Positions 3-35,233 are shown, counted from the first letter of the stretch. The stretch: 64,000 nucleotides of DNA from an uncultured Acidobacteriota bacterium (GCA_963791145.1 CAWBRT010000004.1:11217-75216), one strand, 5' to 3'. Notes: generated by a model not told the origin, from the letters alone. Translations and numbers: made by a program.

Positions 3-179
3 GAGCTGCGTCGAGTCTATCGGATCAATCAAGGCACCAAAGTAAGATTCGAGCGCATCAAGGGCGGGATCGCCGTCTACCCCAACTACGAGGACAGCAT
101 CAGCCAGGCGCGCGGCATTGCGGCAGGCCTTGGACTTCCTAATTGTGTTGATCGTGATCCCGAGCGTGAACTGGGATGA
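3..179 (+). CDS. Partial antitoxin (C-terminal end), runs off the window start; partner of the downstream PIN toxin
   Basis: Frame-3 translation reads ...VRFERIKGGIAVYPNYEDSISQARGIAAGL... and ends at a TGA that overlaps the ATG of the next gene (ATGA coupling). Confidence 0.45.
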   Translation, partial: ELRRVYRINQGTKVRFERIKGGIAVYPNYEDSISQARGIAAGLGLPNCVDRDPERELG

Positions 180-598
180 GACAGTACGTACTCGACGCCA
201 ATGCCTTGCTCCGATTCATCATCAACGCCGACGGCGCCGAGATGGTTGAAAAGGTCCTCAAAGAGGCCAGTGCCAGCGAAACGCGGGTCATGATGTCCGT
301 GGTGAACTGGGGCGAAGTGTATTACACAATGGCTCGCCGGATCGGACTAGCCAAAACCGATCAGCTATTGACCGAAACCTTGGAGAAGACACACTTGTGG
401 TTGATTCAAGTCGATCAGGAAAGTATCGCCAAGGTCGCTCGCCTGAAGGCACAAAATCACGACGTCCCATATGCAGATTGCTTCGCGGCAGCGCTCGCCG
501 GCAGCCGGCACGTCCTGGTCACCGCCGACGTCAAGCACTTCGAGCGAGTCCGAACCCCGAAACTACGCCTTCTGAAGTTGCCTCCGGCCAAGCAATAG
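176..598 (+). CDS. vapC: PIN-domain toxin (VapC family)
   Basis: 140 aa; N-terminal VLDANAL motif, later acidic residues and C-terminal LVTAD motif typical of a PIN fold; translationally coupled to the upstream small ORF. Confidence 0.75.
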   Translation: MRQYVLDANALLRFIINADGAEMVEKVLKEASASETRVMMSVVNWGEVYYTMARRIGLAKTDQLLTETLEKTHLWLIQVDQESIAKVARLKAQNHDVPYADCFAAALAGSRHVLVTADVKHFERVRTPKLRLLKLPPAKQ

Positions 599-879
599 GT
601 TTTCAACGCAATTGCGGAACGAGGGCTCGAGTGCGGCCCGCGGCTCGAGCGGCTGCAGCGCCGGCGCCAAGGGGAAGCAGTGCCGCCACCCGTCAACGCT
701 CACCTCTCGGTCGAACGACAGTAATCGGGATCAAGTCCCGCGTGGCAATCGCCCACTAGCGGTTGCCCGCGGGGCTGGCCAGCGTCATCAGTCCGTACCC
801 CGGCCCCGCAGCAACGCACATCTAAATCACCTCTGGGGTTACGGATTTACATGATTTGGGAGCAGCAGCATACGAGAGC

Positions 880-920
880 AGGAGCATTGTAATACAAGAT
901 ATTATTTTGTATTATTATGA
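880..920 (+). promoter_or_regulatory. Inverted-repeat operator immediately upstream of the RHH antitoxin gene
   Basis: tgtAATACAAgatattattTTGTATTattatgacatATG: AATACAA/TTGTATT inverted repeat spanning the -10 region to the start codon. Confidence 0.4.
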
Positions 921-923
921 CAT

Positions 924-1175
924 ATGAGCAGCACCGAAAAAACCATCAGCTTCCGTGCCGTCGCCGAAAAGATCACCGCGCTTGATTCGCTGGCCGCCGC
1001 GCAGAACCGTCCGCGTAGCTATCTCATCAATGAGGCGATCACCAACTACATCGAACTGCACGCCTACCAGGACGAGCTGGTGCGCAAGGGGTTGGAAGAG
1101 ATGCGGAAAGGCCACGTCTTAAGCCATGAGGAGATCATCAAGCGTCTCAAGCGAACGGGGCGAGCACGTAAATGA
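924..1175 (+). CDS. Ribbon-helix-helix antitoxin (ParD/CopG-like)
   Basis: 83 aa; N-terminal beta-strand followed by helices (KTISFRAVAEKITALDSLAAAQNRPRSYLINEAI); start of the next gene overlaps its stop codon. Confidence 0.7.
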   Translation: MSSTEKTISFRAVAEKITALDSLAAAQNRPRSYLINEAITNYIELHAYQDELVRKGLEEMRKGHVLSHEEIIKRLKRTGRARK

Positions 1176-1456
1176 TCGAATGGACCGAGCAGGCGGCCCG
1201 ACAACTGGATCAAGCTCACGATTACATCGCTCTCTCCAACAGCGAGGCGGTCGCCGCCCAGATTACGATGCGGATCGTAACTGGCATTCAACGGCTCGCT
1301 GCCTTCCCGATGTCGGGCAGACCAGGCCGGGTTCCGGGCACCCGTGAGCTGATCATCTCGGATAAGCCTTTTATCGCCGCCTACGCCATCAAAAAAGCCC
1401 GCATTGTGGTCCTCGCCATCTACCACGGCGCACAGCAATGGCCTGAATCCTTCTAA
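1172..1456 (+). CDS. RelE/ParE-family toxin
   Basis: 94 aa; size and position after the RHH gene; IIYRI-like IVVLAIYHGAQ C-terminus. Confidence 0.75.
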   Translation: MIEWTEQAARQLDQAHDYIALSNSEAVAAQITMRIVTGIQRLAAFPMSGRPGRVPGTRELIISDKPFIAAYAIKKARIVVLAIYHGAQQWPESF

Positions 1457-12672: not shown

Positions 12673-13433
12673 AAAGCCATGCAAACAGGGTCGTACTGGT
12701 TACGGGCGCCGCCAGCGGCATCGGTCAAAGTATCGCCGAAGCGTTCGCTCAACATGGCGCGGCGGTCGGCGCGCTCGATTGCAACCTGGAGAGTCTGGAA
12801 CGCACGGTTGCCCGCTTGCGGTCGTGCGGATTGGCAGTTCACGGATGCCAGGCCAGCGTTGAAGATTTCGATTCGGTGAGTTCCGCCTGCGCCGAACTGG
12901 AAAAAGTCCTGGGCCCCATCGACACGATCATCAATAACGCGGGAATTTCACCCAAGCGCAACGGAGTCCGTGTAGCGACCTGGGACATGGACGTCGAGGA
13001 GTGGAAGCGGGTAGTTGATGTGAATCTTTCCGGTTGCTTCCACACGGTCCGGGTGGTGGCGCCCGGTATGGTCAAGCGGCGTTTCGGGCGCATCGTCAAC
13101 ATGTCGTCGGTCGCCGCCAAAGCTTATCTGACTATGGCAGCGGTGCATTACAGCACGACCAAGGCAGCCTTGATCGGCTTTACCCGACATCTGGCCGGCG
13201 AACTCGGTCCCTATGGAATCACGGCGAACGCCATGGCCCCTGGCCGCATCGATACTCCAATGATGCGCATGGTGGCGGACGAGGTCAATCAGAAAATCCT
13301 CTCGGAGACACCTCTGGGGCGTTTCGGCTTACCCCAGGACGTGGCTAGCCTCGCCCTGTTTCTGACCTCGGCCGATGCCGCTTTTATCACCGGCCAGGTG
13401 ATTGACGTTGCCGGCGGATGGTATATGACCTAA
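12669..13433 (+). CDS. Short-chain dehydrogenase/reductase (SDR family)
   Basis: TGAASGIG cofactor motif, NNAG, and a YSTTK catalytic Tyr-x3-Lys; ATGA overlap with the preceding gene. Confidence 0.85.
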   Translation: MKSHANRVVLVTGAASGIGQSIAEAFAQHGAAVGALDCNLESLERTVARLRSCGLAVHGCQASVEDFDSVSSACAELEKVLGPIDTIINNAGISPKRNGVRVATWDMDVEEWKRVVDVNLSGCFHTVRVVAPGMVKRRFGRIVNMSSVAAKAYLTMAAVHYSTTKAALIGFTRHLAGELGPYGITANAMAPGRIDTPMMRMVADEVNQKILSETPLGRFGLPQDVASLALFLTSADAAFITGQVIDVAGGWYMT

Positions 13434-13446
13434 GCCCCCTTGGATT

Positions 13447-13550
13447 GTAGGAGAGCGAGAGGAAGCCGCCTAAAGCCGGGCGGCTTTATTTTCCGGTATG
13501 TATCTCTGTGGTGGAGTGCTGAACCGAAGGTAAACCGCTGGATCCCACTG
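13447..13550. repeat. ~100-bp direct repeat, copy A (terminator hairpin plus conserved downstream segment)
   Basis: agcgagaggaagccgccNaaagcNgggcggcttt ... ctgaaccNNaggtaaaccgctgga, shared with 14505-14615 at roughly 75% identity. Confidence 0.5.
13458..13495 (+). terminator. Rho-independent terminator after the SDR gene
   Basis: GCCGCCtaaagccGGGCGGC hairpin followed by TTTATTTTCC. Confidence 0.55.
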
Positions 13551-13563
13551 TGTTCCTCGCAAG

Positions 13564-14222
13564 CTATTGATTAAGCCCGCGTTCGTTATAGGTCGCAAGT
13601 TGCAGCTCGAAAACAGCTTTGCGAATCCGACGCAGGTAGATTTCTCTGTTGTCCATAAATTCAAGGCCTACAGCATAGTTCGTCTTCTCAGCGCGGCACC
13701 GGCGGACCACTCCGTTTATGTAGACCATTTGCCCATGAAAATACATCTCCAAGACGATAAGTTCACCGAGGGCAGGCCTATCGCGCGCGATCAGACAAGC
13801 ACCCGATTTGGATAAATCTCGCAAAATGGCCGTTCGCCAAAGCTGACTATCCAGTTGGGAGTATCGTATTTCCACATCACCCATGAGTACGCGAACGGAA
13901 GCGCGGCGCTGAATCTTTTCACCTGCGGTAAGAGGTCTGAGCACGATTCTTGGGGGGCATGGGAGAGAATAGCAGTGATAACGGCTCTGCAAATTGTGAC
14001 CCCGGAGCTGCCCGGCTTCTGCAAGAGGGCTTTTGTGCCGACCTTGCAGCTCGATAAAAAGCTACCCGTCGAGTCTGTGATCATCAGTACAACCTTGTCA
14101 TTTCGAAGCTCGTTGATCACTGCGGTGTGCAAGTTTCCTGCATCGTCCTTTATGGACGCAAAGTCTCCCCCAGCTTTGGTACGAATTGCAACACGGTCAT
14201 TGATCTTAACTTGGCTCAGCAC
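13564..14222 (-). CDS. PilZ-domain protein; coding sequence spans two frames, so a probable frameshift near 13990
   Basis: C-terminal frame (13564-13992) carries the PilZ motifs RRASVRV ... DLSKSGACL; the N-terminal ~85 aa lie in the overlapping ORF 13791-14222. Confidence 0.5.
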
Positions 14223-14299
14223 TTGCTTGCGCCTTTTCTTTATCTCAGCAGTAACGGGAAGTATGACCTTTCTGCCAAAGAGTATTATCGGCAGCTGAC

Positions 14300-14464
14300 A
14301 TGGTTTCCATCACTCGGAGCGATTATTTTGGATACGAGCAGGAGGAAGCGCGAAAGATCCCGGGTGATGATCGCATACTCGCGGCCCAAGCCATCGTGGA
14401 GGGCATTACGCTGCTTACGAATGACCGTAAGCTTCGCGATTACCCAGGCCCAATACGGAAGGGG
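14300..14464 (+). pseudogene. C-terminal stub of a PIN-domain (VapC) toxin
   Basis: ...PGDDRILAAQAIVEGITLLTNDRKLRDYP matches the C-terminal helix/strand of PIN toxins (compare D-IAATA-LVT-D-F); no N-terminal half and no antitoxin are present. Confidence 0.4.
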
Positions 14465-14504
14465 TGATCGAATCTCAGGACCCCGGACACTCGGGTTTCA
14501 TTTT

Positions 14505-14615
14505 ATTCTAGCGAGAGGAAGCCGCCCAAAGCTGGGCGGCTTTTCCATTTGCGGTATTCCTCTTCCTGGGAGGCTGCTGAACCACAGGTAAACCGCTGGA
14601 CCTCAGACGTTGATG
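14505..14615. repeat. ~100-bp direct repeat, copy B (includes a perfect 8-bp-stem terminator hairpin GCCGCCCAaagcTGGGCGGC followed by TTTT)
   Basis: Shares the hairpin and downstream tail with copy A; lies just after the VapC stub. Confidence 0.5.
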
Positions 14616-15024
14616 GGTTCAGCTGGGCCTGCACTGCGGAGGTACGCTGGCCCAGCGAGGAAACTGTCGGTCCTATTGCTCGAATTGCGACTCGGGCGGT
14701 TAGCGGCGGCACCAGTTCACCTTGGCGTCGAGGCCGCAGGCGCTTGAGCTGACCATGGCGCCACACAGACGCAGAAGGTGGCTTTCACACGGAGGGTTCG
14801 GTCCCCAGCCTCGGGGCTGGCCATGTCTGGACGAGCTACTAGAGCGCGATGCTCAGGACTGCGCTGCAGCACTAAGCATGTCCTTCTGAACCAACTCCGG
14901 ACTGCGGTGGAGGTTGAACACCTCTTCGCCCGATCACGACGAAGCTGCTGAAGAATCGTCCATACTGGCCATCAAATTCTTCTTGCGTACTTACTTCGAA
15001 GGAGTGTACCTTATACGGTACATT

Positions 15025-15423
15025 GTGAAAACGAAGCGTCCAATTGCGGTACTCGGCAGTCGTGACGCTCCGCAGAAGCGGATCAGTGCCATCTTCTATC
15101 GAGCGGAGTCCGGAGGCGAGCCCGTTCGCGATTGGCTCAGGAGTCTTCGCAAGGAAGAGCGGAAATTGATAGGCAAGGACATTATGACTGTCGAGTTTGG
15201 GTGGCCCGTCGGGATGCCTGTGTCGCGGCCGCTTGGGCAAGGATTGCACGAAGTCAGAACGAATTTGCCGGGAAACAGGACTGCGCGAGTGTTGTTCTAC
15301 ATCGACCGACTCAACCGGATGGTGTTGCTCCACGGGTTTATCAAGAAGACGGCGGTAACGCCAGCGGACGATCTGAAGCTGGCACGCAGCAACAAAGCGA
15401 AACACCAGCGAGGACTGAAATGA
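15025..15423 (+). CDS. HigB-like toxin of the RelE/ParE superfamily (phage Gp49-like)
   Basis: GTG start; ...VLFYIDRLNRMVLLHGFIKKT motif typical of Gp49/HigB-type toxins; ATGA overlap with the downstream XRE gene. Confidence 0.6.
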   Translation: MKTKRPIAVLGSRDAPQKRISAIFYRAESGGEPVRDWLRSLRKEERKLIGKDIMTVEFGWPVGMPVSRPLGQGLHEVRTNLPGNRTARVLFYIDRLNRMVLLHGFIKKTAVTPADDLKLARSNKAKHQRGLK

Positions 15424-15827
15424 GCAGCACCAAGAGATTCGATCACAGTGGATCAGCGTTCGATAGCTTTCTCGAAGAAGAGGGTGTTCTTGCGGAGACT
15501 GAGGCCGTCGCGCTGAAGAGAGTGATCGCCTGGCAGATCGAGCAGGTAATGGCAGCCAAGAGAATCACCAAGAACGTCATGGCTAAGCGCCTCTTCACAA
15601 GCCGAACGCAGATTGATCGACTGCTCAACCCCTCTCACGTAGGCGTGAGCATCGAGACCATAGCGCGCGCAGCGAAGGCTGTCGGGAAACGAGTAATATT
15701 CCAGATTGTAGATGCAGAGATTGTTCACCACCGGTTCAAGGAGACCAAGAGTGGTGCAAAACTGACGCGCGGAAAGTCTGTAAGACCTGCGAAAACTCAG
15801 CGCAAGAATGTTGCCCGAGCCGGTTAG
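15420..15827 (+). CDS. XRE-family helix-turn-helix antitoxin (HigA-like)
   Basis: HTH segment ITKNVMAKRLFTSRTQIDRLLNPSHVGVSIETIARAAKAVG; coupled to the upstream toxin. Confidence 0.65.
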   Translation: MSSTKRFDHSGSAFDSFLEEEGVLAETEAVALKRVIAWQIEQVMAAKRITKNVMAKRLFTSRTQIDRLLNPSHVGVSIETIARAAKAVGKRVIFQIVDAEIVHHRFKETKSGAKLTRGKSVRPAKTQRKNVARAG

Positions 15828-16897
15828 CGGTTCTCGGCGCGACACGACTACAGATGGCTATCGACGCCAGCTTACCGAGCCAACAGAGCGGTGCGGAAAG
15901 GCACGCGCGGCTAAGCTTACACCTGAGCAGCGAAGTGAGAGCGCAAGGAAGGCAGCAATGGCCCGTTGGGAAGCTAAGCGTCGAGACAGGCAATAGCTGT
16001 ATTTTTGTGCAGGTGCGATGGAGCCGCCCATGTCTGGGAGGCTCTTTCCATTTATGGCCGCTTTTTCCCAGCAGGCCCTACGGAACGATCGCCCAATAGA
16101 TATTCATCTGGGCCAGTGCTTTGATGGCATGCCGATCTCGCTGCCAAAGAGCGACCTATTGGCGCCTACGCTGCAAGCGCTCAAGCCGGCTACGTCCTGT
16201 TCTTATTTAGAAAACCAAAACCACCTCGGCTACACCGTGCCGGCGCGACAAACCGAGATAGTGCGAAGCGCCGTGCTGCCGGGGCGGGCGTTCGAGCTGA
16301 CCCACAGCCGGTACAGCTGACGACACGAAACGACCTTCATGCCACAGCATCAGGTCTGTAGCCTCCCAGCCGGGTAAACGCGCCTAGGCAATTTGCAAGG
16401 CGGAAGCGGTGCGGGGATTGTAATCTCCTTATCCCAAGTGAAATCTGTTTTCCACAGCCTTCTATATTGACAAGCAATGTTACGCTTGTACCAGCTACGT
16501 GCTCCTTTTCGCCTGCGGCGACGCCCATCGTCCCGTTAAAGTGGAGGTCGCGAAGAGGTCACTGGTTCCTGGCGGCTCGGGGAGCCACCCGGGAAACAAA
16601 GGCTGAAGTTCCGTCCCCGGTGCGGATGAAGTCGACCGGTGAAATGCTCCCCCCATCCGATCTCGGTTGGTCTACACCAGTAGACTGCGCAAAATCCGAA
16701 AAACCTTAATTTAGCGTCCTGCTCGCAACCGCTGCGCAGCAGGTGAGCGCATTTCTCTGCCTAAAAAGGCAGAAGGGAGAAAATATGGACCCGCATGATG
16801 AATACCTGAGCTGAATGCTGACGCACAACCCAAGAACCCCGAGCAAAACGGGTCCTCAAATGGAGCAAACGGGAGCAAACCGAAGCGGCGACATACG

Positions 16898-17674
16898 ATG
16901 ACCGAAAAGCGGCTCAAGGCAAACCGCGAGAATGCGAAATGTTCGACAGGGCCACGCACTCCAGAAGGGAAGAGGGCCGCGTGTTTCAACGCCGTCAAGG
17001 ATGGCATCCTCGCAAAAGATGTTATCGGTTCGGGCCGAATCGTGGGCGAATCTTTGGAGGGAAATGTGGCCTTTGTTTCCGAGCTGGTTGAAGATTGCGA
17101 GCCGGTCGGGAAATTCGAGCGAGCATTAGCCGTGGATATTGCGGGCTACTTCATTTGTAAGCAGCGCGCTGATCGGGCTGAGCAGGCCGCAATCGAAATT
17201 GCACAGCGCGAGTCTGACTCAATGGAAACCATAGAATCATTGCAACGTAGTGCACTAGCGGCGAAGTTTCCAAAATCGTTGTCGGCCAGGGGGGATGTCC
17301 TTCGCTCACTAGTTGCGGTTCAGTACCTCATTAATCGTTGCGCAGAGGCCTTGCAGCAATTGGAATCGGGCCAGATTAACAAACATACATTGGGCGAACT
17401 GGACCGGTTCTTGGGGACTGATTTCGTCGATAGGATTGCGACACCTTCAGAGTTGCCCGGACTCTTCGCGGAGCTCAAGTCCGCATTGGAACAATCGGCG
17501 GCGGGGCTTCAAAAGAAGCGAGCCTTGCTCAAGTTGAGTAAGAGCCTACCTGAAGCTCTTGATCGCATCATCAGATACAAATCGATGGTCCATCGTCACC
17601 TAATGCAGACCATGCAACAGCTAGCCACACTACAACAATGCCGGCGGCAGCGGAAGGAGGAGCAAAATGACTGA
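16898..17674 (+). CDS. Hypothetical protein (258 aa, helical); no family recognised
   Basis: Long ORF with coding-like composition; stop overlaps the start of the next gene (ATGACTGA). Confidence 0.5.
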   Translation: MTEKRLKANRENAKCSTGPRTPEGKRAACFNAVKDGILAKDVIGSGRIVGESLEGNVAFVSELVEDCEPVGKFERALAVDIAGYFICKQRADRAEQAAIEIAQRESDSMETIESLQRSALAAKFPKSLSARGDVLRSLVAVQYLINRCAEALQQLESGQINKHTLGELDRFLGTDFVDRIATPSELPGLFAELKSALEQSAAGLQKKRALLKLSKSLPEALDRIIRYKSMVHRHLMQTMQQLATLQQCRRQRKEEQND

Positions 17675-18365
17675 CTCGCAAAAGGAAGTTAATGCAGATG
17701 AATTGGCGGTGCTTGAATGGCTTACGGATCATCTCCTAGCTAGTTTTGACCTTGAGGCCGAGATCGAGTATTTGAAGGTCAAGCACGAGCTTCAATCGTA
17801 CTCGCAAATGCCAAAATCACAACGGCCACAGCCGAGGTCAGCGGGCCAAGAATTTTCTGGGATCGATAGCAAACCAAAATATGATGGCATTCAGCGGTTC
17901 GAAATGACTGGCGAGGAGTGGCAGGCGTTAGCTGAAAGAGTACGAAAGAAGTGGGAGAAAAAACGAGATGAGGAGTTAGCCAAGAAAGCCAAGCAGGTGG
18001 AGCAGCAAGAAAATTCGTATACCACGGCTTCGGTTCCGGTGCCTACACTGCCTCCCGGACACGTAACCTGGGCGGAAGGACCTGTTCCCCCGCGGAGAGA
18101 CGGACCACCGGATACTAATAATTCGGCCATTCAGAAGCCAGCTTCTACACCACCTGCTTCGGAACCGAACACAACCAAGTCGTCGTTGCAACCAGCTACT
18201 CCCGAGTCGACTGGAAGGAGTGCTCCGGCGAGCCCCGAACTTCGGCCGCGAAACCCCCTCTTCGACGGACCAATTCGGTGGCGCCATTCGGATGAAACGC
18301 GCCGCGAACGCCTTTATGAGCGAGCACCGAATGGCGAAATTCGTGAACTTGATCCCCAGAATTAA
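17667..18365 (+). CDS. Hypothetical protein (232 aa) with a charged coiled-coil centre and Pro/Ser/Thr-rich tail
   Basis: Translationally coupled to 16898-17674. Confidence 0.45.
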   Translation: MTDSQKEVNADELAVLEWLTDHLLASFDLEAEIEYLKVKHELQSYSQMPKSQRPQPRSAGQEFSGIDSKPKYDGIQRFEMTGEEWQALAERVRKKWEKKRDEELAKKAKQVEQQENSYTTASVPVPTLPPGHVTWAEGPVPPRRDGPPDTNNSAIQKPASTPPASEPNTTKSSLQPATPESTGRSAPASPELRPRNPLFDGPIRWRHSDETRRERLYERAPNGEIRELDPQN

Positions 18366-18713
18366 GCTTGATTGATTTCGTACAGAGGGAGCCGAAAAAG
18401 GATTTTTCGGCCCCTCCTATTCCTGACACATACGAGCACAGGCCGCAAATGGGAAGCTGCGGCCGTGTTCGAGGCTACCCGTGATCCGGTTGCGAGTGCC
18501 GTTTTGATGGCGGCTATCGCCAGAAAACCAAGAGGAGTACAACAGTCCAAAGAGGCAAAGCGACCCACCAGCTTTGGGCGCGGGGCTGGCCAGCAGCATC
18601 TGTCCACAACCAGGAAAGCGAGAGAGAGGAGCTGTAAGACTGCTGCGAGGAGAAGAGCGTAGCCACGTGCTAGCCTCTTTGGGAGTCCACCGCAGTCGGT
18701 CGCGGAAAGTGGC

Positions 18714-19115
18714 CTACCAGATGGTGTCCACGACCTTTGCTGCCCGAATACACTCGTCGGCCGTGACCAATGGGCACCCTTCGATGATGGCGGTAGAACC
18801 GATCAAACGGTCGGCGGGGTCTTTCGGATAGTTTGCCGGGAGCCGTACAGCCAGGGCGGCAATTTCGGGGGTCAAGGGGCGGAGAATGACCCTTGAAACG
18901 GTTTCGCGGACAAACGACTCCACCGTGCCGGCAACATGGATGCGCCCATGCTGCGCGAGCCAGGCCAGCTCCCATAGTGTGATCGTCGCTACGGCGAGAG
19001 CGCTGCTCTGGCGTGCCTTGCGGATTGCTTCCCGGGCCTTCCTGGAGAGCCGTTTCGGCTCGGCAGCCATCCAGATGAGGGTGTGAGTGTCGAGCAGGAT
19101 CATTTGTTCTCCCAA
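18714..19115 (-). CDS. vapC: PIN-domain toxin VapC
   Basis: ILLDTHTLIW ... PADRLIGSTAIIEGCPLVTADE; classic PIN acidic residues. Confidence 0.8.
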   Translation of the reverse strand: MGEQMILLDTHTLIWMAAEPKRLSRKAREAIRKARQSSALAVATITLWELAWLAQHGRIHVAGTVESFVRETVSRVILRPLTPEIAALAVRLPANYPKDPADRLIGSTAIIEGCPLVTADECIRAAKVVDTIW

Positions 19116-19330
19116 TCTTCCAGCGGCGTGACGGGCGCGACGATGTCACCGAGAATCGTCACTTTTCCAGCCATATAGCCAAAAACCTCATCCCCGGTCG
19201 ATTCGGCCGGGACGAGCTTTGCCACCGGCTTGCCGTGCTTTGTAATCAGCACCGGCTCGCCGCTCTGCTGCACCTGGTTCATGATGGCAAGGCATTGAGA
19301 TTTGAAGTGACCTGCGGGTATTTCCTTCAT
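19100..19330 (-). CDS. Phd/YefM-family antitoxin
   Basis: 76 aa; ...GEPVLITKHGKPVAKLVP... is the Phd/YefM signature; overlaps the vapC start. Confidence 0.8.
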   Translation of the reverse strand: MKEIPAGHFKSQCLAIMNQVQQSGEPVLITKHGKPVAKLVPAESTGDEVFGYMAGKVTILGDIVAPVTPLEDWENK

Positions 19331-19380
19331 AAGTGGCGTACCTCAGGATAATGGCCATGGTCATAATATTATGGCCATAG
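19331..19380. promoter_or_regulatory. Palindromic operator upstream of phd-vapC
   Basis: ATAATGGCCATggtcATAATATTATGGCCATagCCAT: repeated self-complementary ATGGCCAT half-sites centred on an AATATT core. Confidence 0.45.
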
Positions 19381-19643
19381 CCATAAAGCAAGCATTTAAC
19401 GCGTCAGGCTGCTAAGTCACCGCAGGGACGTCTGCGCGAAGACGTCGGATAGTTCTTCTCCGGAGATTGGAGGCTGGGAAGACCGGTCTGCGGGATTCTG
19501 CGGATTCCTACTTGTGGCCGAGTCGCTCATTGATCGGGCTGTTTGATACGGTCGGCGATGGCTGTGGGCAGCAGTTCGTTGATTCAACCTCGCAGCCATT
19601 ATCGCGTGGCATTCAGCTTCTTGGCCACGAATCACCTTCAGTT

Positions 19644-19900
19644 TCAGTGATAATCCACGATTTCTACTTCGTAGGTGTCGCTCGCCCGACATTCAAAACA
19701 GATCTGCCATTGGTCATTGATGCGAACGCTGTGCTGTCCTTCCCGGTTGCCGTGCAGTTTCTCCAATAGCCCAATAAGCAGGGAAACCGCCACCGCAAAA
19801 GTAGTGGGTTATTCCCCAGCCCAGCACTCAATGCCTTCTTCAACGGAATGAATAACCCGGAAAGCTCTCCGTAGCGTTCATAAAAGGAAAAGGCCAGCAT
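19644..19900 (-). pseudogene. HigB-type (RelE-family killer) toxin gene with an internal frameshift; the downstream antitoxin is decayed
   Basis: C-terminus ...KLHGNREGQHSVRINDQWQICFECRASDTYEVEIVDYH* is the canonical HigB end; the N-terminal part (MLAFSFYERYG...GLGNNP) sits in another frame, joining near a TTTT run (~19770). Confidence 0.45.
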
Positions 19901-19937
19901 TGCCGCTGGCCTCCATCCCGGGAAAGAAGAATCCTGC

Positions 19938-20234
19938 CTACTTCTTCGGCGGCACGATTGCCTCCTTCGTCGCCTTCGCCAAATAGAATTTCGCCACCGT
20001 CTTCGCCTTAATCTTAATCGGCTCGCCGGTCCGGGGGTTACGACCCATCCGGGCTTTCCGCTGTACCTTCTTCAACCGCCCTAGGCCGGGAAGAACGAAT
20101 ACCCCGGTCTTCTTAGCCTGTGCTACCGCCAGTTCCGCCAGATAATTCAAAAAAGCCGCAGACTGCTTGTTGGTGATTTCGTTTTTCTCGGCCAGAAACC
20201 GAATCAACTGGGTCTTGGTCATTGTTGCTGCCAT
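19938..20234 (-). CDS. HU/IHF-family DNA-binding protein
   Basis: ...GRNPRTGEPIKIKAKTVAKF... is the HU arm motif; a lysine-rich C-terminal tail is present. Confidence 0.85.
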   Translation of the reverse strand: MAATMTKTQLIRFLAEKNEITNKQSAAFLNYLAELAVAQAKKTGVFVLPGLGRLKKVQRKARMGRNPRTGEPIKIKAKTVAKFYLAKATKEAIVPPKK

Positions 20235-20264
20235 TCAGGTGTCCTCCTTGTAGATCAAGCGAGA

Positions 20265-20519
20265 CTATTGTTTATTGAGCTTGTTTTTCCGTTCCTGCAG
20301 AGCCTGACGCTCTTTTTGCGCCTGTGCGGCTTGCGCGGAGTTTAGCTGTTTACCGCCGTACTGGGCATTGTGCCGGGCCACATCGTTCTTGAGTTGCTGC
20401 TGTTGCGCTTGTTTCGCGGCTTTCTGCTGCGTGTTATTCTTATCTTCAGCCAGCAGCATGGAAGCGCCTAGGAACAGAACGATCAGCAGCAGGAATGATG
20501 TGGCCTTCCCTCTGGTCAT
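20265..20519 (-). CDS. Small secreted Gln/Ala/Lys-rich protein of unknown function
   Basis: 84 aa; N-terminal signal peptide (FLLLIVLFLGASMLLA); low-complexity remainder. Confidence 0.4.
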   Translation of the reverse strand: MTRGKATSFLLLIVLFLGASMLLAEDKNNTQQKAAKQAQQQQLKNDVARHNAQYGGKQLNSAQAAQAQKERQALQERKNKLNKQ

Positions 20520-20989
20520 CTCCCCTCCTTCGTGAGGCGCTTTTGTGTAAACCGGCTAGGGGCCGCTTGCTTTAAAGTTTCACAAGTGCCACAACTCCGC
20601 AAGTGTATTTCTCGGCAGCCCTTTCCGACATGGGACCGAGTCGAAACCAGAAGGCGGGGGAGTGATTCCGAATCTATAGCTGTTTCCCACTCTTCTTCTC
20701 AAGACGGGCACTGAGCGGCGAAAGACCTTTCGTTGAAATCTGGTGGCACTGGCTTGAGGGAACTGTGAATCAGAAACTGCCACAAAAGCCCTGTGTGCGC
20801 TTGATGTTTTAACCTCCAAGCGACGGGATGGGCACCCCATCTGCCTACGATGTAGGGTTCGGCTAACCGAAGACGCCGACTACCTCGCACAAGCCGGGCA
20901 ACGCTTTCGGTAGGGCGTGAATCGATCTCGAAGATACCTACTACGCAGCGTTGCGGCTCTTGAACGGGAGCATGTCAGACCTTCGAGGT

Positions 20990-21175
20990 CGGACCGATCT
21001 CGGGGCTCGGCGAGTTTGAAACTAAGCCGATTCAGGCTGTATCTGCGAAGCACACGATCGCAGACCATCTCGATTGAGCTGCCTGGTCTTCAGGTGACCT
21101 TTGCCGGGGGCGAACGAATCCATACGGAGAATAGCTACAAGTACACCCCATGCCATGGTCTGCTCTCTCCTGCAG
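20990..21175 (+). pseudogene. Possible C-terminal remnant of an EgtD-type SAM-dependent histidine N-methyltransferase
   Basis: ...LQVTFAGGERIHTENSYKYTP resembles the EgtD C-terminal L-V-F--GE-I-TE-S-KF-PE motif; no intact upstream ORF. Confidence 0.25.
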
Positions 21176-21660
21176 GACGGAGGATTTGACTGGAACATAC
21201 CTGTGGACGGACTGGCGGAAAGGGCGGCACAGTCGGGGTCGTGACGATGAACCGTCCTGTATTTCATGAATGCGTCCGCCAGAAGGGCAGCGTGAGGGTA
21301 ATACACGAATACGAACTCGAAAGGCACACACAACGAACAAAGGAGAAGGAACATGAAGATCTTGATGGTGCTACGGCGGATTCTGGAGAGCATCAGAAGC
21401 GATTAATGCCTTCGAGCCAATGCTGGCAATTGAGAACAGCGCTCCAGCGGCTTTCGAATGGATAGTCCTCTGTGGGCCCAGGAACCCCAGGCAGTACAGG
21501 AGGAGGGACTGCTTGCAGTAAGTGGTCGTGCTGCACAAAGATTCGAGACTACGCCAGAGCAGGCGGGAGGTTCTGTTAATTAATGCAACCATTCTTTTGC
21601 AATTGCTATCGACAGAGTCAACACTTTGGCAAAATCTAGCATTAGTCAGGAGACCAAAGC

Positions 21661-21993: not shown

Positions 21994-22387
21994 TTCGTAG
22001 CCACCGGGACTGCTTCTCCACGGGTTGTCTTCGTACTGATTGCAGTTGAACTCTTTCATCGTTGCAAGCTGCACGCGTTGGGACTGATGGGTTAGTCTCC
22101 CGGCCAGGTCAACGTGTCGCCCCAAGCGTTGACTGAAATCACCGAGTTCCTTATCGACATTCGCAATCGGCCCCCGGTCGGACTGTCGTCTGAAAAGACG
22201 TTGAGTTCAATCGGACGTGCCCAAAGGGGGGACACCGTGACCCAACCTGGTGCTACACAACGAGGCAGCGAGTTGGCAACTGACGCCGTGCCTTGGGAGG
22301 CTTTTCCTAAGCCAAAGACGCCTGGGTTTACTCGATCCGCGCGTCATTCAGGCCGCTGTGCTAACTGAGATAGGTAGGAGTCGAATC

Positions 22388-22999
22388 ATGCGCTTTGGCA
22401 TTGTGCCCGGAGGTACCTTTCCCGACTACGAGCTGCCCGATCACACGAGCAGACTGCGCAGGCTCAGCGAACTGCAGGGCGATGACCCGCTGATCCTCAC
22501 CCTCGCGCGCGGCAACTACTGCCCGAAGGAGCACCAGCAGCACCTGGAACTGGCCGCGTTCTACCCGAAGATCGCCGTGGCCTACACCCAGATCGCCACG
22601 ATCTCCACCGATGACCATCACACGCTCCAGGAGTTCCGTGCGTCGGTCGGCGCCCAGTGGACCTTCCTCTCCGACCCTGACCGAACGGTGCAGAAGGACC
22701 TCGACATCCAGGAGTACACCGACCCCGAGCACAACCCGATGATCCCGCACACGCTGGTGCTCAAGCCGGGCCTCGTGATCCACAGCATCTACAACGGCTA
22801 CTGGTTCTGGGGCCGCCCGTCGTTCATCGACCTCTGGCACGACCTGCGCGCCGTCACGCAGCGAGATCCGCCCCGACTGGGACCTGAGCACCCCGGGCTC
22901 CGCGAGGCTTGGAACGCGGGCGACTTCTCGCGCTTCCACGGGTGGAACAAACGGGCCGATGCGAAAGCGGCCCCGGTTGGACTGAAGAAGGAACGGTGA
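22388..22999 (+). CDS. AhpC/TSA (redoxin) family thioredoxin-fold protein
   Basis: GGAG RBS; CPKE-type active-site cysteine; thioredoxin-fold layout. Confidence 0.65.
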   Translation: MRFGIVPGGTFPDYELPDHTSRLRRLSELQGDDPLILTLARGNYCPKEHQQHLELAAFYPKIAVAYTQIATISTDDHHTLQEFRASVGAQWTFLSDPDRTVQKDLDIQEYTDPEHNPMIPHTLVLKPGLVIHSIYNGYWFWGRPSFIDLWHDLRAVTQRDPPRLGPEHPGLREAWNAGDFSRFHGWNKRADAKAAPVGLKKER

Positions 23000-25013: not shown

Positions 25014-25149
25014 GCCTGACCGGGGTTCGGAAGAATCACACCTCTAACTTCCCATAACGCGGTTTTGGGCCCCTGCCCGTAGTGGAAGGAGAGGCTGACA
25101 AACGCCAGAGGCCGATAGCGGCCAGAGGGTCTCAGGCGGAGAATGATGG

Positions 25150-27985: not shown

Positions 27986-28283
27986 GTCGACATCCTATCC
28001 CACCCACCCGCACAATGCGAGTGACCGCACGCCAGCAGCACACGTCACTCCATACGTTTAGGATGGGCCCATTGTGCGTTCCCCAAAAAACATACGGCCA
28101 CTTACTCCCGACGCATGTCGTGTCCATCTGCGCAGGCACCTCATTCCTGATTGACACCGTCAACAACACTTTCAGAAGCCGGGCCAGAAGTCAGGTTCTG
28201 GGAAGTCAGCCTTGGTCAGGAGGCGACAGCTCTGATTTCGCAAAATGCAGTCTCGGGATATCCCAGTACTGCTGCCAATGTCT

Positions 28284-29974: not shown

Positions 29975-30055
29975 CGCGATCCCGAAGTCGGCTTCTGGGA
30001 ACTCAGCCTCTGGCTTCCCAGAACGCGGTTTCGGGGTCCCGAAACCGAACCGCTT
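29975..30055. repeat. REP/MITE-like palindromic element, compact copy
   Basis: cccgaagtcggcttctgggaACTCAGcctctggCTTCCCAGAACGCGGTTTCGGGgtcccgaaaccg: two nested hairpins. Confidence 0.55.
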
Positions 30056-33870: not shown

Positions 33871-34150
33871 GTCCCGAAGTCGGATTCTGGGAAGTTAGAA
33901 GATCTGGTGGCAGTTGCTGTCAATTGTGGGCAAGTGGCGCCAATCCGGGAACTGATCGAGAGCCGCCCGGATCAGTACCGATAAACGCCCCTTGATCCAT
34001 CTATTCGCGGCGGCCCGCGCGGTTCTGGATTCGCGGATGCCTAACCGACTTTTCGGTACTGATCAGCTTGGTCCCGGACTATACCTGGATCGACGACCAT
34101 CCGTCCAGCACCGTCGTTCCTAACTTCCCAGAACGCGGTTTCGGTGTCCC
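33871..34150. mobile_element. MITE-like element: same arms as the REP-like family, but separated by ~220 bp of unrelated sequence
   Basis: Left arm gtcccgaagtcggattctgggaagttag (33871-33898) and right arm cctaacttcccagaacgcggtttcggtgtccc (34119-34150) form an imperfect inverted repeat. Confidence 0.45.
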
Positions 34151-35180: not shown

Positions 35181-35233
35181 CTGAAGCCTGGTTCAGGAAA
35201 GTTAGACCCAATCTTCCCAGAACGCGGTTTCTG
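35181..35233. repeat. REP-like palindromic element, compact copy
   Basis: ctgaagcctggttcaggaaagttag-acccaat-cttcccagaacgcggtttctg. Confidence 0.5.

What the first reader, a model, noticed from the sequence alone, without database searches (positions are those of the whole stretch)
13440..19930. TA-dense accessory island with layered insertions and decay
Within 6.5 kb there is a PilZ gene bracketed by ~100-bp direct repeats with a VapC C-terminal stub beside it. These are followed by HigB(Gp49)/HigA(XRE), the unknown pair, Phd/VapC with a palindromic operator, and a frameshifted HigB whose antitoxin partner is reduced to about 20 codons ending in the Phd operator. The remnants suggest successive insertions of TA cassettes into one another.
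Basis: partly seen in the sequence, partly recalled or inferred. Interest (0 to 1): 0.55.

Follow-up and report, generated by a model that had tools for sequence, protein, structure and literature searches.

The report
Patchwork toxin-antitoxin locus after a conserved operon

Summary
Most listed elements are real. These are the PilZ gene, a PIN/VapC C-terminal stub, a ~95-nt direct repeat (79% identity, E 7e-17), Gp49-like toxin + XRE, an overlapping unknown pair, and Phd+VapC with a palindrome. The "frameshifted HigB with a 20-codon HigA stub" is wrong. What exists is a 155-bp higBA fragment (19612-19766): the last ~40 higB codons plus the first 5-6 higA codons, 93.5% identical to a metagenome higBA locus, with abrupt ends.

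The organism is a Terriglobia bacterium. Homology with three related genomes stops at 13435-13439, just after the SDR stop codon, and at least three different contents follow it. Phd-VapC is a compact 704-bp module (18689-19392), 86.5% identical to a copy in an unrelated context. One contig from another sample matches 14686-14790 (99%) and 18576-31 (94.6%). Between those flanks it carries a divergent unknown pair and no Gp49/XRE.

So the mosaic, turnover and decay are supported. Literal nesting is not shown, because the Phd-VapC module edge lies 219 nt from the higA breakpoint. No integrase, tRNA, attC site or empty site was found. The PilZ gene is itself frame-disrupted at a C6 run. This is an ordinary TA-rich flexible locus.

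The parts
13434..13440 (.). Left edge of the variable region: homology with three related genomes ends here, 2-6 bp after the SDR stop codon (13431-13433)
   Evidence: blastn: L002 is 93.9% identical up to 13439; L003 and L004 are 78% identical up to 13435. Four-way alignment.
13454..13547 (+). Direct repeat copy 1, containing a terminator-like hairpin (13463-13486) followed by a T-run
   Evidence: the repeat finder D2/D3 and I6; blastn 79% identity over 91 nt, E 7e-17; nhmmer.
13564..13992 (-). PilZ domain ORF (c-di-GMP-binding motifs RRASVR and DLSKSG intact)
   Evidence: Pfam PF07238 E 1e-12; translation.
13993..14222 (-). Upstream coding segment in another frame. It probably encodes the N-terminal domain of the same PilZ gene, with the frame changing at the C6 run 13952-13957
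   Evidence: Codon-usage score +0.171 against -0.34 in the other frames, like core genes. The continuation of that frame into the PilZ domain scores -0.055. Sequence. No homologue found.
14351..14467 (+). PIN/VapC C-terminal relic of about 35-40 codons, lacking the first three catalytic acidic positions
   Evidence: Pfam PIN positions 87-118 of 120, E 1.7e-4. tblastn with the window's VapC aligns only residues 98-120.
14510..14605 (+). Direct repeat copy 2 (hairpin 14519-14542 followed by a T-run)
14686..14790 (.). Non-coding segment shared at 99% identity with contig L109 from another sample; left flank of the replaceable segment
   Evidence: blastn L109 1-105 against the window.
15025..15423 (+). 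Gp49-like (RelE/ParE-superfamily, HigB-like) toxin gene; the GTG start is inferred
   Evidence: Pfam PF05973 E 1.6e-15; phrog_2523 2.4e-14. Plasmid homologues up to 61% identity are annotated as RelE/ParE toxin followed by an XRE regulator. Start-codon survey.
15420..15827 (+). XRE-type HTH antitoxin candidate, overlapping the toxin stop by 4 nt (ATGA)
   Evidence: Pfam HTH_26 1.1e-4 and HTH_37 7e-4; PHROG HTH families.
15808..15996 (+). Small ORF with a KARAAKLTPEQRSE..ARW motif; poor coding score, possibly a gene fragment
   Evidence: phrog_2384 positions 7-39 of 338, E 5e-6; coding score -0.108.
16008..16057 (+). Weak third copy of the hairpin part of the repeat
   Evidence: nhmmer E 0.021; alignment A3.
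16898..17674 (+). unkA: member of a large uncharacterised all-helical family with the invariant N-terminal motif A-N..N...STGPRT..GK
   Evidence: 5496 cluster representatives at E<=1e-3; alignment A2; AF2 pLDDT 83, all-alpha; no specific fold match.
17667..18365 (+). unkB: overlaps unkA by 8 nt and is largely low-complexity. Its N-terminal ~100 aa are conserved in the partner of the closest unkA homologue
   Evidence: blastp against the L109 partner: 36% identity, E 8e-16. No family hit.
18576..18631 (.). Segment shared at 94.6% identity with the other end of L109; right flank of the replaceable segment 14791-18575
18689..19392 (-). Phd-VapC module: VapC 18714-19103, Phd 19100-19330, operator palindrome 19351-19384
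   Evidence: 86.5% nt identity over 712 nt with L105, which has a different genomic context. The operator core is conserved. Pfam. The four PIN acidic residues D5, E45, D98 and D115 were read from the translation.
19612..19766 (-). Doubly truncated higBA fragment: higB codons ~53-93 (stop at 19644-19646), a 15-nt spacer, and the first 5-6 codons of higA (GTG at 19626-19628)
   Evidence: 93.5% identity over 155 nt with L024, E 1e-61, with abrupt loss of homology on both sides. PF05015 positions 53-91 of 91. 67.5% aa identity to residues 54-93 of an Agrobacterium HigB.
19889..20234 (-). HU/IHF-type DNA-binding protein gene (19938-20234) and its terminator (19889-19914). This is the nominal right neighbour; it is not shown to be the true right boundary
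   Evidence: Pfam PF00216 2e-22; terminator scan; strong coding score +0.257.
21022..21150 (+). EgtD-like methyltransferase fragment, showing that gene decay continues to the right of the reported interval
   Evidence: Pfam PF10017 positions 231-272 of 304, E 2.3e-6, in a six-frame scan of the gaps.

Best explanation
The interval is the core of a flexible (strain-variable) chromosomal locus. It starts directly after the last gene of a conserved oxidoreductase operon in a Terriglobia (Acidobacteriota) genome. It is a mosaic of small self-contained modules that were gained, replaced and partly deleted by recombination.

Shown:
- The break of synteny at the SDR stop.
- The sharp module edges.
- The same modules occurring in other contexts.
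- The truncated state of the PIN and higBA pieces.

Inferred:
- The two intact operons act as classical type II addiction modules. These are the Gp49/RelE-like toxin with an XRE antitoxin, and the Phd antitoxin with the VapC PIN RNase.
- In such modules a stable toxin is neutralised by a labile antitoxin. The complex autorepresses transcription, here at the conserved palindrome upstream of phd.
- That makes these modules hard to lose, so they persist while neighbouring DNA erodes into non-functional debris: the PIN tail, the 155-bp higBA piece, the frame-disrupted PilZ gene, and the EgtD-like fragment further right.
- The ~95-nt repeats are duplicated terminator-containing junction sequences. 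They may have served as substrates for homologous recombination, but they are not target-site duplications.

The unknown pair is a lineage-variable two-gene module of unknown function that occupies the same position in another strain.
For: Organism and left boundary:
- L002 (Terriglobia MAG) is 93.9% identical up to 13439. L003 and L004 (Acidobacteriota MAGs) are 78% identical up to 13435. At least three different downstream contents follow in the four genomes.

Modules:
- Phd-VapC 18689-19392 is 86.5% identical to L105, where it sits next to a xanthine/uracil permease gene.
- This VapC type has 3489 relatives at E<=1e-20; several source records name Terriglobales.
- The higBA fragment 19612-19766 is 93.5% identical to L024, and the homology ends abruptly on both sides.

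Replacement:
- The ends of L109 match 14686-14790 (99%) and 18576-18631 (94.6%). Between them L109 holds 2.17 kb with an unkA at 54% aa identity, an unkB at 36%, and no Gp49/XRE.

Gene identities.

Foreign-looking codon usage and lower GC in several island genes.

Another TA cluster lies at 176-1456, so TA modules are frequent in this genome.

General knowledge: TA loci are mobile, enriched in genomic islands, can stabilise them, and can decay (review PMC2654758).
Against: - No empty site or conspecific genome covering both flanks was found, so the right boundary and the order of events are unknown.
- No integrase, transposase, tRNA or recognisable att/attC site explains how the modules move.
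- The replacement evidence rests on one 2.3-kb contig with short matching ends.
- Several comparison contigs, and perhaps the window itself, may come from long-read assemblies. Homopolymer errors in such assemblies could create the PilZ frame change.
- No function of any TA pair has been tested.
Confidence: 0.7

Rival explanations
1. Strict nesting. Each cassette was inserted into the previous one: Phd-VapC landed inside higA, and the PilZ segment landed inside a vapBC operon and duplicated about 100 bp of target.
For: - Truncated genes lie beside intact modules: the PIN tail next to the PilZ gene, and the higBA fragment next to Phd-VapC.
- Direct repeats bracket the PilZ gene and the PIN stub.
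Against: - The Phd-VapC module edge (19392) and the higA breakpoint (19612) are 219 nt apart, with no homology to either partner.
- higB is also truncated on its far side, at 19766. An insertion into higA does not explain that.
- The repeats are only 79% identical, carry a terminator hairpin, and have a weaker third copy at 16008-16057.
Confidence: 0.2
2. A single decayed integrative element (a prophage or ICE remnant), with the ~95-nt repeats as its attL/attR.
For: - An abrupt left edge next to a repeat copy.
- Gp49-like and XRE genes are common in phages.
- GC is somewhat lower than in the flanks.
Against: - No integrase, no tRNA, and no phage structural or replication genes.
- The repeats bracket only about 1 kb, not the whole region.
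- The repeat cores are absent from 2.9 million viral contigs, and Gp49 has no close viral relative there.
- Sub-modules have independent relatives in unrelated contexts.
Confidence: 0.05
3. An integron-like cassette array without an integrase (a CALIN), with the repeated elements acting as attC-like recombination sites.
For: - Three related hairpin-containing elements lie at the 3' ends of consecutive plus-strand units: after the SDR gene, after the PIN stub, and after the XRE/small ORF.
- TA cassettes are typical of chromosomal integrons (general knowledge; PMC2654758).
Against: - No RYYYAAC...GTTRRRY hairpin pairs were found in a direct scan of 13300-20300.
- The hairpins are short, GC-rich and followed by T-runs, as intrinsic terminators are.
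- No integron integrase was seen, and the genes are in mixed orientations.
- No copy of the element occurs in about 1 Mb of related loci.
Confidence: 0.04
4. The mosaic and the frame disruptions are largely artefacts of metagenome assembly: strain chimeras and homopolymer errors.
For: - The PilZ frame change lies at a C6 run.
- L105 shows two compensating 1-nt indels in phd, which hints at error-prone long-read assemblies among these data.
- Exact products of HU, Phd and XRE were not on record, although unkA was.
Against: - An independent assembly (L001) reproduces 15895-18399 at 100% identity.
- The breakpoints in L002, L105 and L109 lie inside those contigs, not at their ends.
- Truncations such as the 155-bp higBA piece are not the kind of error that assemblers make.
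Confidence: 0.1

Closest known systems
Type II toxin-antitoxin operon pairing a Phd/YefM-family antitoxin with a VapC (PIN-domain RNase) toxin
   Same: The order is antitoxin first, with a 4-nt ATGA overlap. The Phd N-terminal domain and a complete PIN domain with four acidic residues are present. A palindrome upstream of the antitoxin is conserved in a relative.
   Different: Nothing unusual was seen. Activity, RNA target and autoregulation are untested.
HigB-like / Gp49 (RelE/ParE superfamily) toxin with an XRE (HigA-like) antitoxin, in toxin-first order
   Same: A Gp49 domain toxin is followed by an overlapping HTH gene. Plasmid homologues are annotated in exactly this way.
   Different: The toxin has no ATG start and an N-terminal extension must be assumed. 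The antitoxin has a long basic tail and is followed by an overlapping small ORF of doubtful status.
HigB (PF05015) / HigA addiction module
   Same: The fragment at 19612-19766 is 93.5% identical in DNA to a higB-higA locus and keeps the toxin C-terminus, the spacer and the antitoxin start.
   Different: Only 155 bp remain. It lacks the toxin N-terminal half and more than 90% of the antitoxin, so it is a relic and not a member in working order.
TA-rich genomic islands and TA-stabilised chromosomal cassette arrays such as Vibrio superintegrons
   Same: Several TA modules are clustered in accessory DNA. Modules recur in different contexts, repeated elements lie at unit junctions, and decayed copies are present (PMC2654758).
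   Different: There is no integrase and there are no attC sites. The locus is much smaller, with mixed gene orientations.
Flexible genomic islands / replacement hot spots at a fixed chromosomal position between conserved genes (general knowledge of prokaryotic pangenomes)
   Same: The edge at the end of the operon is conserved, with at least three different contents in four related genomes. A divergent allele of the unknown pair sits between near-identical flanks.
   Different: The right-hand conserved flank has not been identified, and only a few short comparison contigs exist.

Membership tests
Type II TA, Phd/YefM-VapC | PIN domain toxin with the conserved acidic residues | tested here: met
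   PF01850 E 1.5e-16 over profile positions 1-116 of 120. D5, E45, D98 and D115 were read in the translation.
Type II TA, Phd/YefM-VapC | Small antitoxin gene immediately upstream, translationally coupled | tested here: met
   PF02604 1.1e-10 and TIGR01552 1.8e-9. The ATGA overlap at 19100-19103 is visible in the sequence.
Type II TA, Phd/YefM-VapC | Autoregulatory operator (an inverted repeat in the promoter) | tested here: inconclusive
   The palindrome 19351-19384 has 20-nt arms with 90% complementarity, and its core is conserved in L105. Binding and repression cannot be tested here.
Type II TA, Phd/YefM-VapC | Toxin toxicity neutralised by the antitoxin | not testable with these tools
   Needs expression assays.
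Type II TA, Gp49(HigB-like)-XRE | RelE/ParE-superfamily Gp49 domain toxin followed by an HTH antitoxin in one operon | tested here: met
   PF05973 1.6e-15; HTH_26 and HTH_37; 4-nt overlap. Plasmid homologues are annotated as RelE/ParE toxin followed by an XRE regulator.
HigB(PF05015)-HigA module | Full-length toxin (~92 aa) and full-length HigA (~100 aa) | tested here: not met
   Only profile positions 53-91 of 91 and 17 nt of higA remain. Homology to L024 ends at 19766 and at 19612.
PilZ c-di-GMP receptor | PilZ domain with RxxxR and (D/N)xSxxG motifs in an uninterrupted reading frame | tested here: inconclusive
   The domain and both motifs are present. However, a coding upstream segment lies in another frame, with the switch at a C6 run. 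This may be a real frameshift or a sequencing error.
Integrative genomic island / prophage remnant | Integrase or recombinase gene, and a tRNA or att-site boundary | tested here: not met
   No tRNA in the window. No recombinase domain in the island ORFs, in a six-frame scan of four of the five gaps (plus strand only in the fourth), or in ORFs from 25 to 35 kb.
Integrative genomic island / prophage remnant | Absent from close relatives at the same site | tested here: met
   L002, L003 and L004 diverge from the window just after the SDR stop and carry none of the island genes. This is tested for the left side only.
Integron cassette array / CALIN | attC sites (R''/R' boxes in an imperfect hairpin) after the cassettes | tested here: not met
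   A direct pattern-plus-folding scan found 0 candidates in 13300-20300. This was a crude test and not the IntegronFinder model.
Integron cassette array / CALIN | IntI integrase with attI nearby | not tested
   No tyrosine-recombinase hit among the ORFs scanned. The rest of the genome is not available.

The most novel reading that the evidence does not exclude
Two things together could mark an integrase-independent cassette-exchange site. First, the terminator-bearing ~95-nt repeat: its first copy lies 15 nt inside the left edge of the variable region, and related copies follow consecutive units. Second, the near-identical flanks that enclose divergent versions of the unknown pair. At such a site the unkA/unkB module would be a new kind of selfish or defence element under diversifying replacement. 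unkA belongs to a family with more than 5000 cluster representatives, an invariant STGPRT..GK motif, no Pfam entry and no fold match.
Probability: 0.07. Interest if true: 0.6.

Novelty: new member of a known kind. Interest (0 to 1): 0.25.

Why it matters
The region has modest value. It is a clean, small example of how toxin-antitoxin modules behave as compact (~700 bp) transferable units in soil Acidobacteriota, and of how they leave sharply bounded relics at a recombination hot spot at the end of an operon. It also corrects two misreadings: the 'frameshifted' HigB and the HigA stub at the operator. It also points to a large uncharacterised protein family (unkA) that sits in variable regions. 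None of this would surprise a specialist. TA clustering in accessory DNA, TA mobility and TA decay are all well documented.

Tried and rejected
- Empty-site search. The genome-contig scan with the SDR gene gave only three syntenic relatives, all of which diverge just after the SDR stop. The metagenome scan with the AhpC-like right-flank gene returned 80 loci, none syntenic.
- Exact look-ups of HU, VapC (133-aa version), Phd and XRE were not on record.
- HigB N-terminal half and HigA stub. Local alignments against shuffled controls were not significant. The many 58-aa 'HigB' database entries looked like a short form, but at least one (L020) is a miscalled GTG start.
- The idea that the PIN stub keeps an N-terminal 'AIILDTS' motif, implying an internal deletion, was not recovered by tblastn.
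- A six-frame Pfam scan of four of the five gene-free gaps (plus strand only in the fourth) found only the EgtD-like fragment.
- Rfam gave nothing at gathering thresholds or at E<=1, and there are no tRNAs.
- The attC-like pattern scan found none.
- The repeat cores are absent from viral contigs, and Gp49 has no close viral relative.
- The fused PilZ protein had no PDB or plasmid homologue. Its single-sequence AlphaFold model was useless (pLDDT 38.7).

Full report
**Observation**

I mapped all ORFs, repeats and composition for 11.5-22 kb and scanned the candidate proteins against Pfam, PADLOC, NCBIfam and PHROGs.

- A PilZ-domain ORF at 13564-13992(-), E 1e-12, with both c-di-GMP motifs.
- A 55-codon ORF at 14300-14467(+) whose residues 18-49 match PIN profile positions 87-118 of 120. 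Only VapC residues ~98-120 can be aligned.
- A direct repeat at 13454-13547 and 14510-14605, with 79% identity and blastn E 7e-17. There are only two full copies in 64 kb, and they bracket those two genes.
- A Gp49-like toxin at 15025-15423 (E 1.6e-15) overlapping an XRE gene at 15420-15827.
- Two overlapping ORFs with no family hit, 16898-17674 and 17667-18365.
- Phd (19100-19330) overlapping VapC (18714-19103), downstream of the palindrome at 19351-19384.

**What does not hold: the HigB/HigA description**

The HigB-like match covers only profile positions 53-91 of 91.

The closest relative found (P0001, 88% aa identity) lies on contig L024. DNA alignment shows 93.5% identity over exactly 155 nt (window 19612-19766, E 1e-61), and the homology stops abruptly on both sides.

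That piece comprises the last ~40 higB codons, the stop, a 15-nt spacer, and GTG GCC AAG AAG CTG AA, which are the first 5-6 codons of higA.

No frame of 19767-19940 resembles a HigB N-terminal half (p >= 0.07 against shuffles).

So the gene is truncated at both ends, not frameshifted. The real higA remnant lies about 220 nt from the operator.

The many 58-aa 'HigB' proteins in the database looked like a short form. In L020, the one locus checked, the full-length reading frame starts at GTG, so that entry is a miscalled start.

Upstream of the PilZ domain, in another frame, 13996-14222(-) has a codon-usage score of +0.171. Its alternative frames score -0.34, and core genes score +0.15 to +0.26. 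The continuation of that frame across the PilZ domain scores -0.055.

The two frames meet at a C6 run, 13952-13957. The PilZ gene is therefore probably a two-domain gene of about 219 aa interrupted by a 1-nt indel. That indel could be real, or it could be a homopolymer error.

I could not confirm the N-terminal domain by homology or structure.

**Organism and boundary**

A genome scan with the SDR protein returned one Terriglobia MAG contig (L002, 93.9% nt identity) and two Acidobacteriota MAG contigs (L003 and L004, 78%).

The upstream ABC / shikimate-DH / ADH / QOR / SDR genes are syntenic in L003 and L004. L002 covers only ADH, QOR and SDR. All three lose homology with the window within 2-6 bp after the SDR stop codon.

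The downstream contents differ:
- L002 has unrelated non-coding DNA.
- L003 and L004 share an XRE-cupin regulator and then differ from each other.

The first copy of the repeat starts 15 nt inside the window-specific DNA.

The right boundary could not be defined. A metagenome scan with the AhpC-like gene at 22250-22999 gave 80 loci without synteny. An EgtD-like methyltransferase fragment at ~21022-21150 shows that decay continues to the right of HU.

**Modularity**

VapC has thousands of close relatives; several source records name Terriglobales. The best one (92% aa identity) lies on L105, next to a xanthine/uracil permease gene.

Nucleotide homology with the window (86.5%) covers exactly 18689-19392. 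That span runs from 8 nt upstream of the palindrome to 25 nt past the vapC stop. Phd-VapC is thus a ~704-bp unit that occurs in different contexts.

Its edge (19392) does not touch the higA breakpoint (19612). The 219 nt between them match nothing I could search.

**Replacement between conserved flanks**

The closest homologue of unkA (P0122, 54% aa identity) lies on the Logan contig L109, together with a partner that resembles unkB over its first ~100 residues (36% identity, E 8e-16).

The two ends of L109 match window 14686-14790 (99%) and 18576-18631 (94.6%).

Hence, in another sample, the 3785-nt segment 14791-18575 is replaced by 2170 nt. The window's segment holds Gp49/XRE, the small ORFs and unkAB. 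The replacement carries a divergent unkAB and no Gp49/XRE. This is the clearest sign of turnover at the locus, although it rests on a single short contig.

An independent assembly (L001) reproduces 15895-18399 at 100% identity.

**The repeats**

Each copy begins with a GC-rich hairpin followed by a T-run (AAGCCGCCyAAAGCyGGGCGGCTTTT), which is an intrinsic-terminator shape. About 55 nt of further homology follows.

A third, weaker copy of the hairpin part lies at 16008-16057, after the XRE/small ORF (nhmmer E 0.02).

None occurs in about 1 Mb of related loci or in the viral contigs. A direct scan for attC-like R''/R' hairpins found none.

I read them as duplicated terminator-containing junction sequences. 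They could serve homologous recombination. They are neither a fresh target-site duplication nor integron sites.

**The unknown pair**

unkA belongs to a very large family: 5496 cluster representatives at E <= 1e-3. It has no Pfam model. It has an invariant N-terminal motif (A-N..N...STGPRT..GK...N...HG) and a conserved C-terminal RYE...R helix.

Three distant homologues sit alone in variable contexts. One is beside an HTH/PDDEXK/HNH cluster and one is beside a PemK TA pair. None has an unkB-like partner. The function remains unknown, and I do not claim that the pair is a TA system.

**Mechanism**

What is shown:
- The synteny break at the SDR stop.
- The module edges.
- The recurrence of modules in other contexts.
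- The truncations.

What is inferred from established knowledge of type II TA systems (review PMC2654758):
- Gp49/XRE and Phd/VapC act as addiction modules with autorepression.
- This favours their retention while adjacent DNA is deleted or replaced.
- The PIN tail and the higBA piece are inactive debris.

How the modules move is not explained. There is no integrase, transposase or tRNA in or near the locus.

**Caveats**

- The window and some comparison contigs may derive from long-read metagenome assemblies. Single-base frame changes in the PilZ gene and in the L105 phd should therefore not be over-read.
- Neither the order of events nor strict nesting can be established without conspecific genomes.

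**Verdict**

The region is real and mosaic, but it is an ordinary TA-rich flexible locus. Interest is low to moderate.

Noticed in passing
window 176-1456: A second TA cluster lies at the left end of the window. It contains a full VapC/PIN gene (176-598, E 1.5e-11) and an RHH antitoxin (924-1175) overlapping a ParE toxin (1172-1456, E 4e-16). TA modules are therefore frequent throughout this genome, not only in the reported interval.
   Followed up: partly
window 21022-21150 (+): An EgtD-like histidine methyltransferase fragment (PF10017 positions 231-272 of 304, E 2.3e-6) lies in a 1.1-kb stretch without intact genes (20520-21660). Gene decay extends to the right of HU.
   Followed up: partly
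window 25044-25078, 28181-28209, 30014-30035, 33873-33898, 34119-34144, 35213-35231; also L002 3223-3258: A dispersed ~25-nt motif, CCGAAACCGCGTTCTGGGAAGTTAG, occurs at least six times in 10 kb of the window and in the tail of the related contig L002. Some copies are perfect over 19-26 nt. It could be a regulatory site or a REP-like element.
   Followed up: no
window 643-687 (-), 752-794 (+), 770-781, 14812-14823, 18581-18592: The intergenic DNA between the VapC and ParDE genes at the window start weakly resembles the two flanks of the replaceable segment (E about 1e-5 each). The 12-mer CGGGGCTGGCCA occurs three times (0.04 expected): at 770, 14812 and 18581. This may be a short junction repeat associated with TA modules.
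   Followed up: partly
L024 1-330: In the closest higBA relative, higB is itself out of frame near codon 15. VIKSFRSPATERLF reads in one frame and the rest in another, which looks like a ~14-nt deletion relative to the L020-type gene. Its higA is intact. This would be a toxin-first pattern of decay.
   Followed up: no
L020 2880-3177 and proteins P0002, P0005, P0011 etc.: Many database 'HigB' proteins of exactly 58 aa start at a conserved internal Met. In L020 the full-length frame starts with GTG about 34 codons upstream, so at least that 58-aa entry is a start-site miscall.
   Followed up: partly
window 16898-17674; alignment A2: unkA represents a very large uncharacterised family: 5496 cluster representatives, typically about 300 aa. 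It has an invariant STGPRT..GK motif and no Pfam, PHROG, PADLOC or NCBIfam model. Five relatives were found among the viral contigs.
   Followed up: partly
L105 9776-10000: The phd gene of the related Phd-VapC module carries two 1-nt deletions about 45 nt apart that restore the frame. These are either real compensating changes or long-read homopolymer errors.
   Followed up: no
window 15808-15996 (+): A small ORF overlapping the XRE stop has the motif GKARAAKLTPEQRSESARKAAMARW. It matches the N-terminus (positions 7-39 of 338) of phrog_2384, a PHROG family of unknown function (E 5e-6), but its coding score is poor. It is possibly a 5' gene fragment.
   Followed up: no
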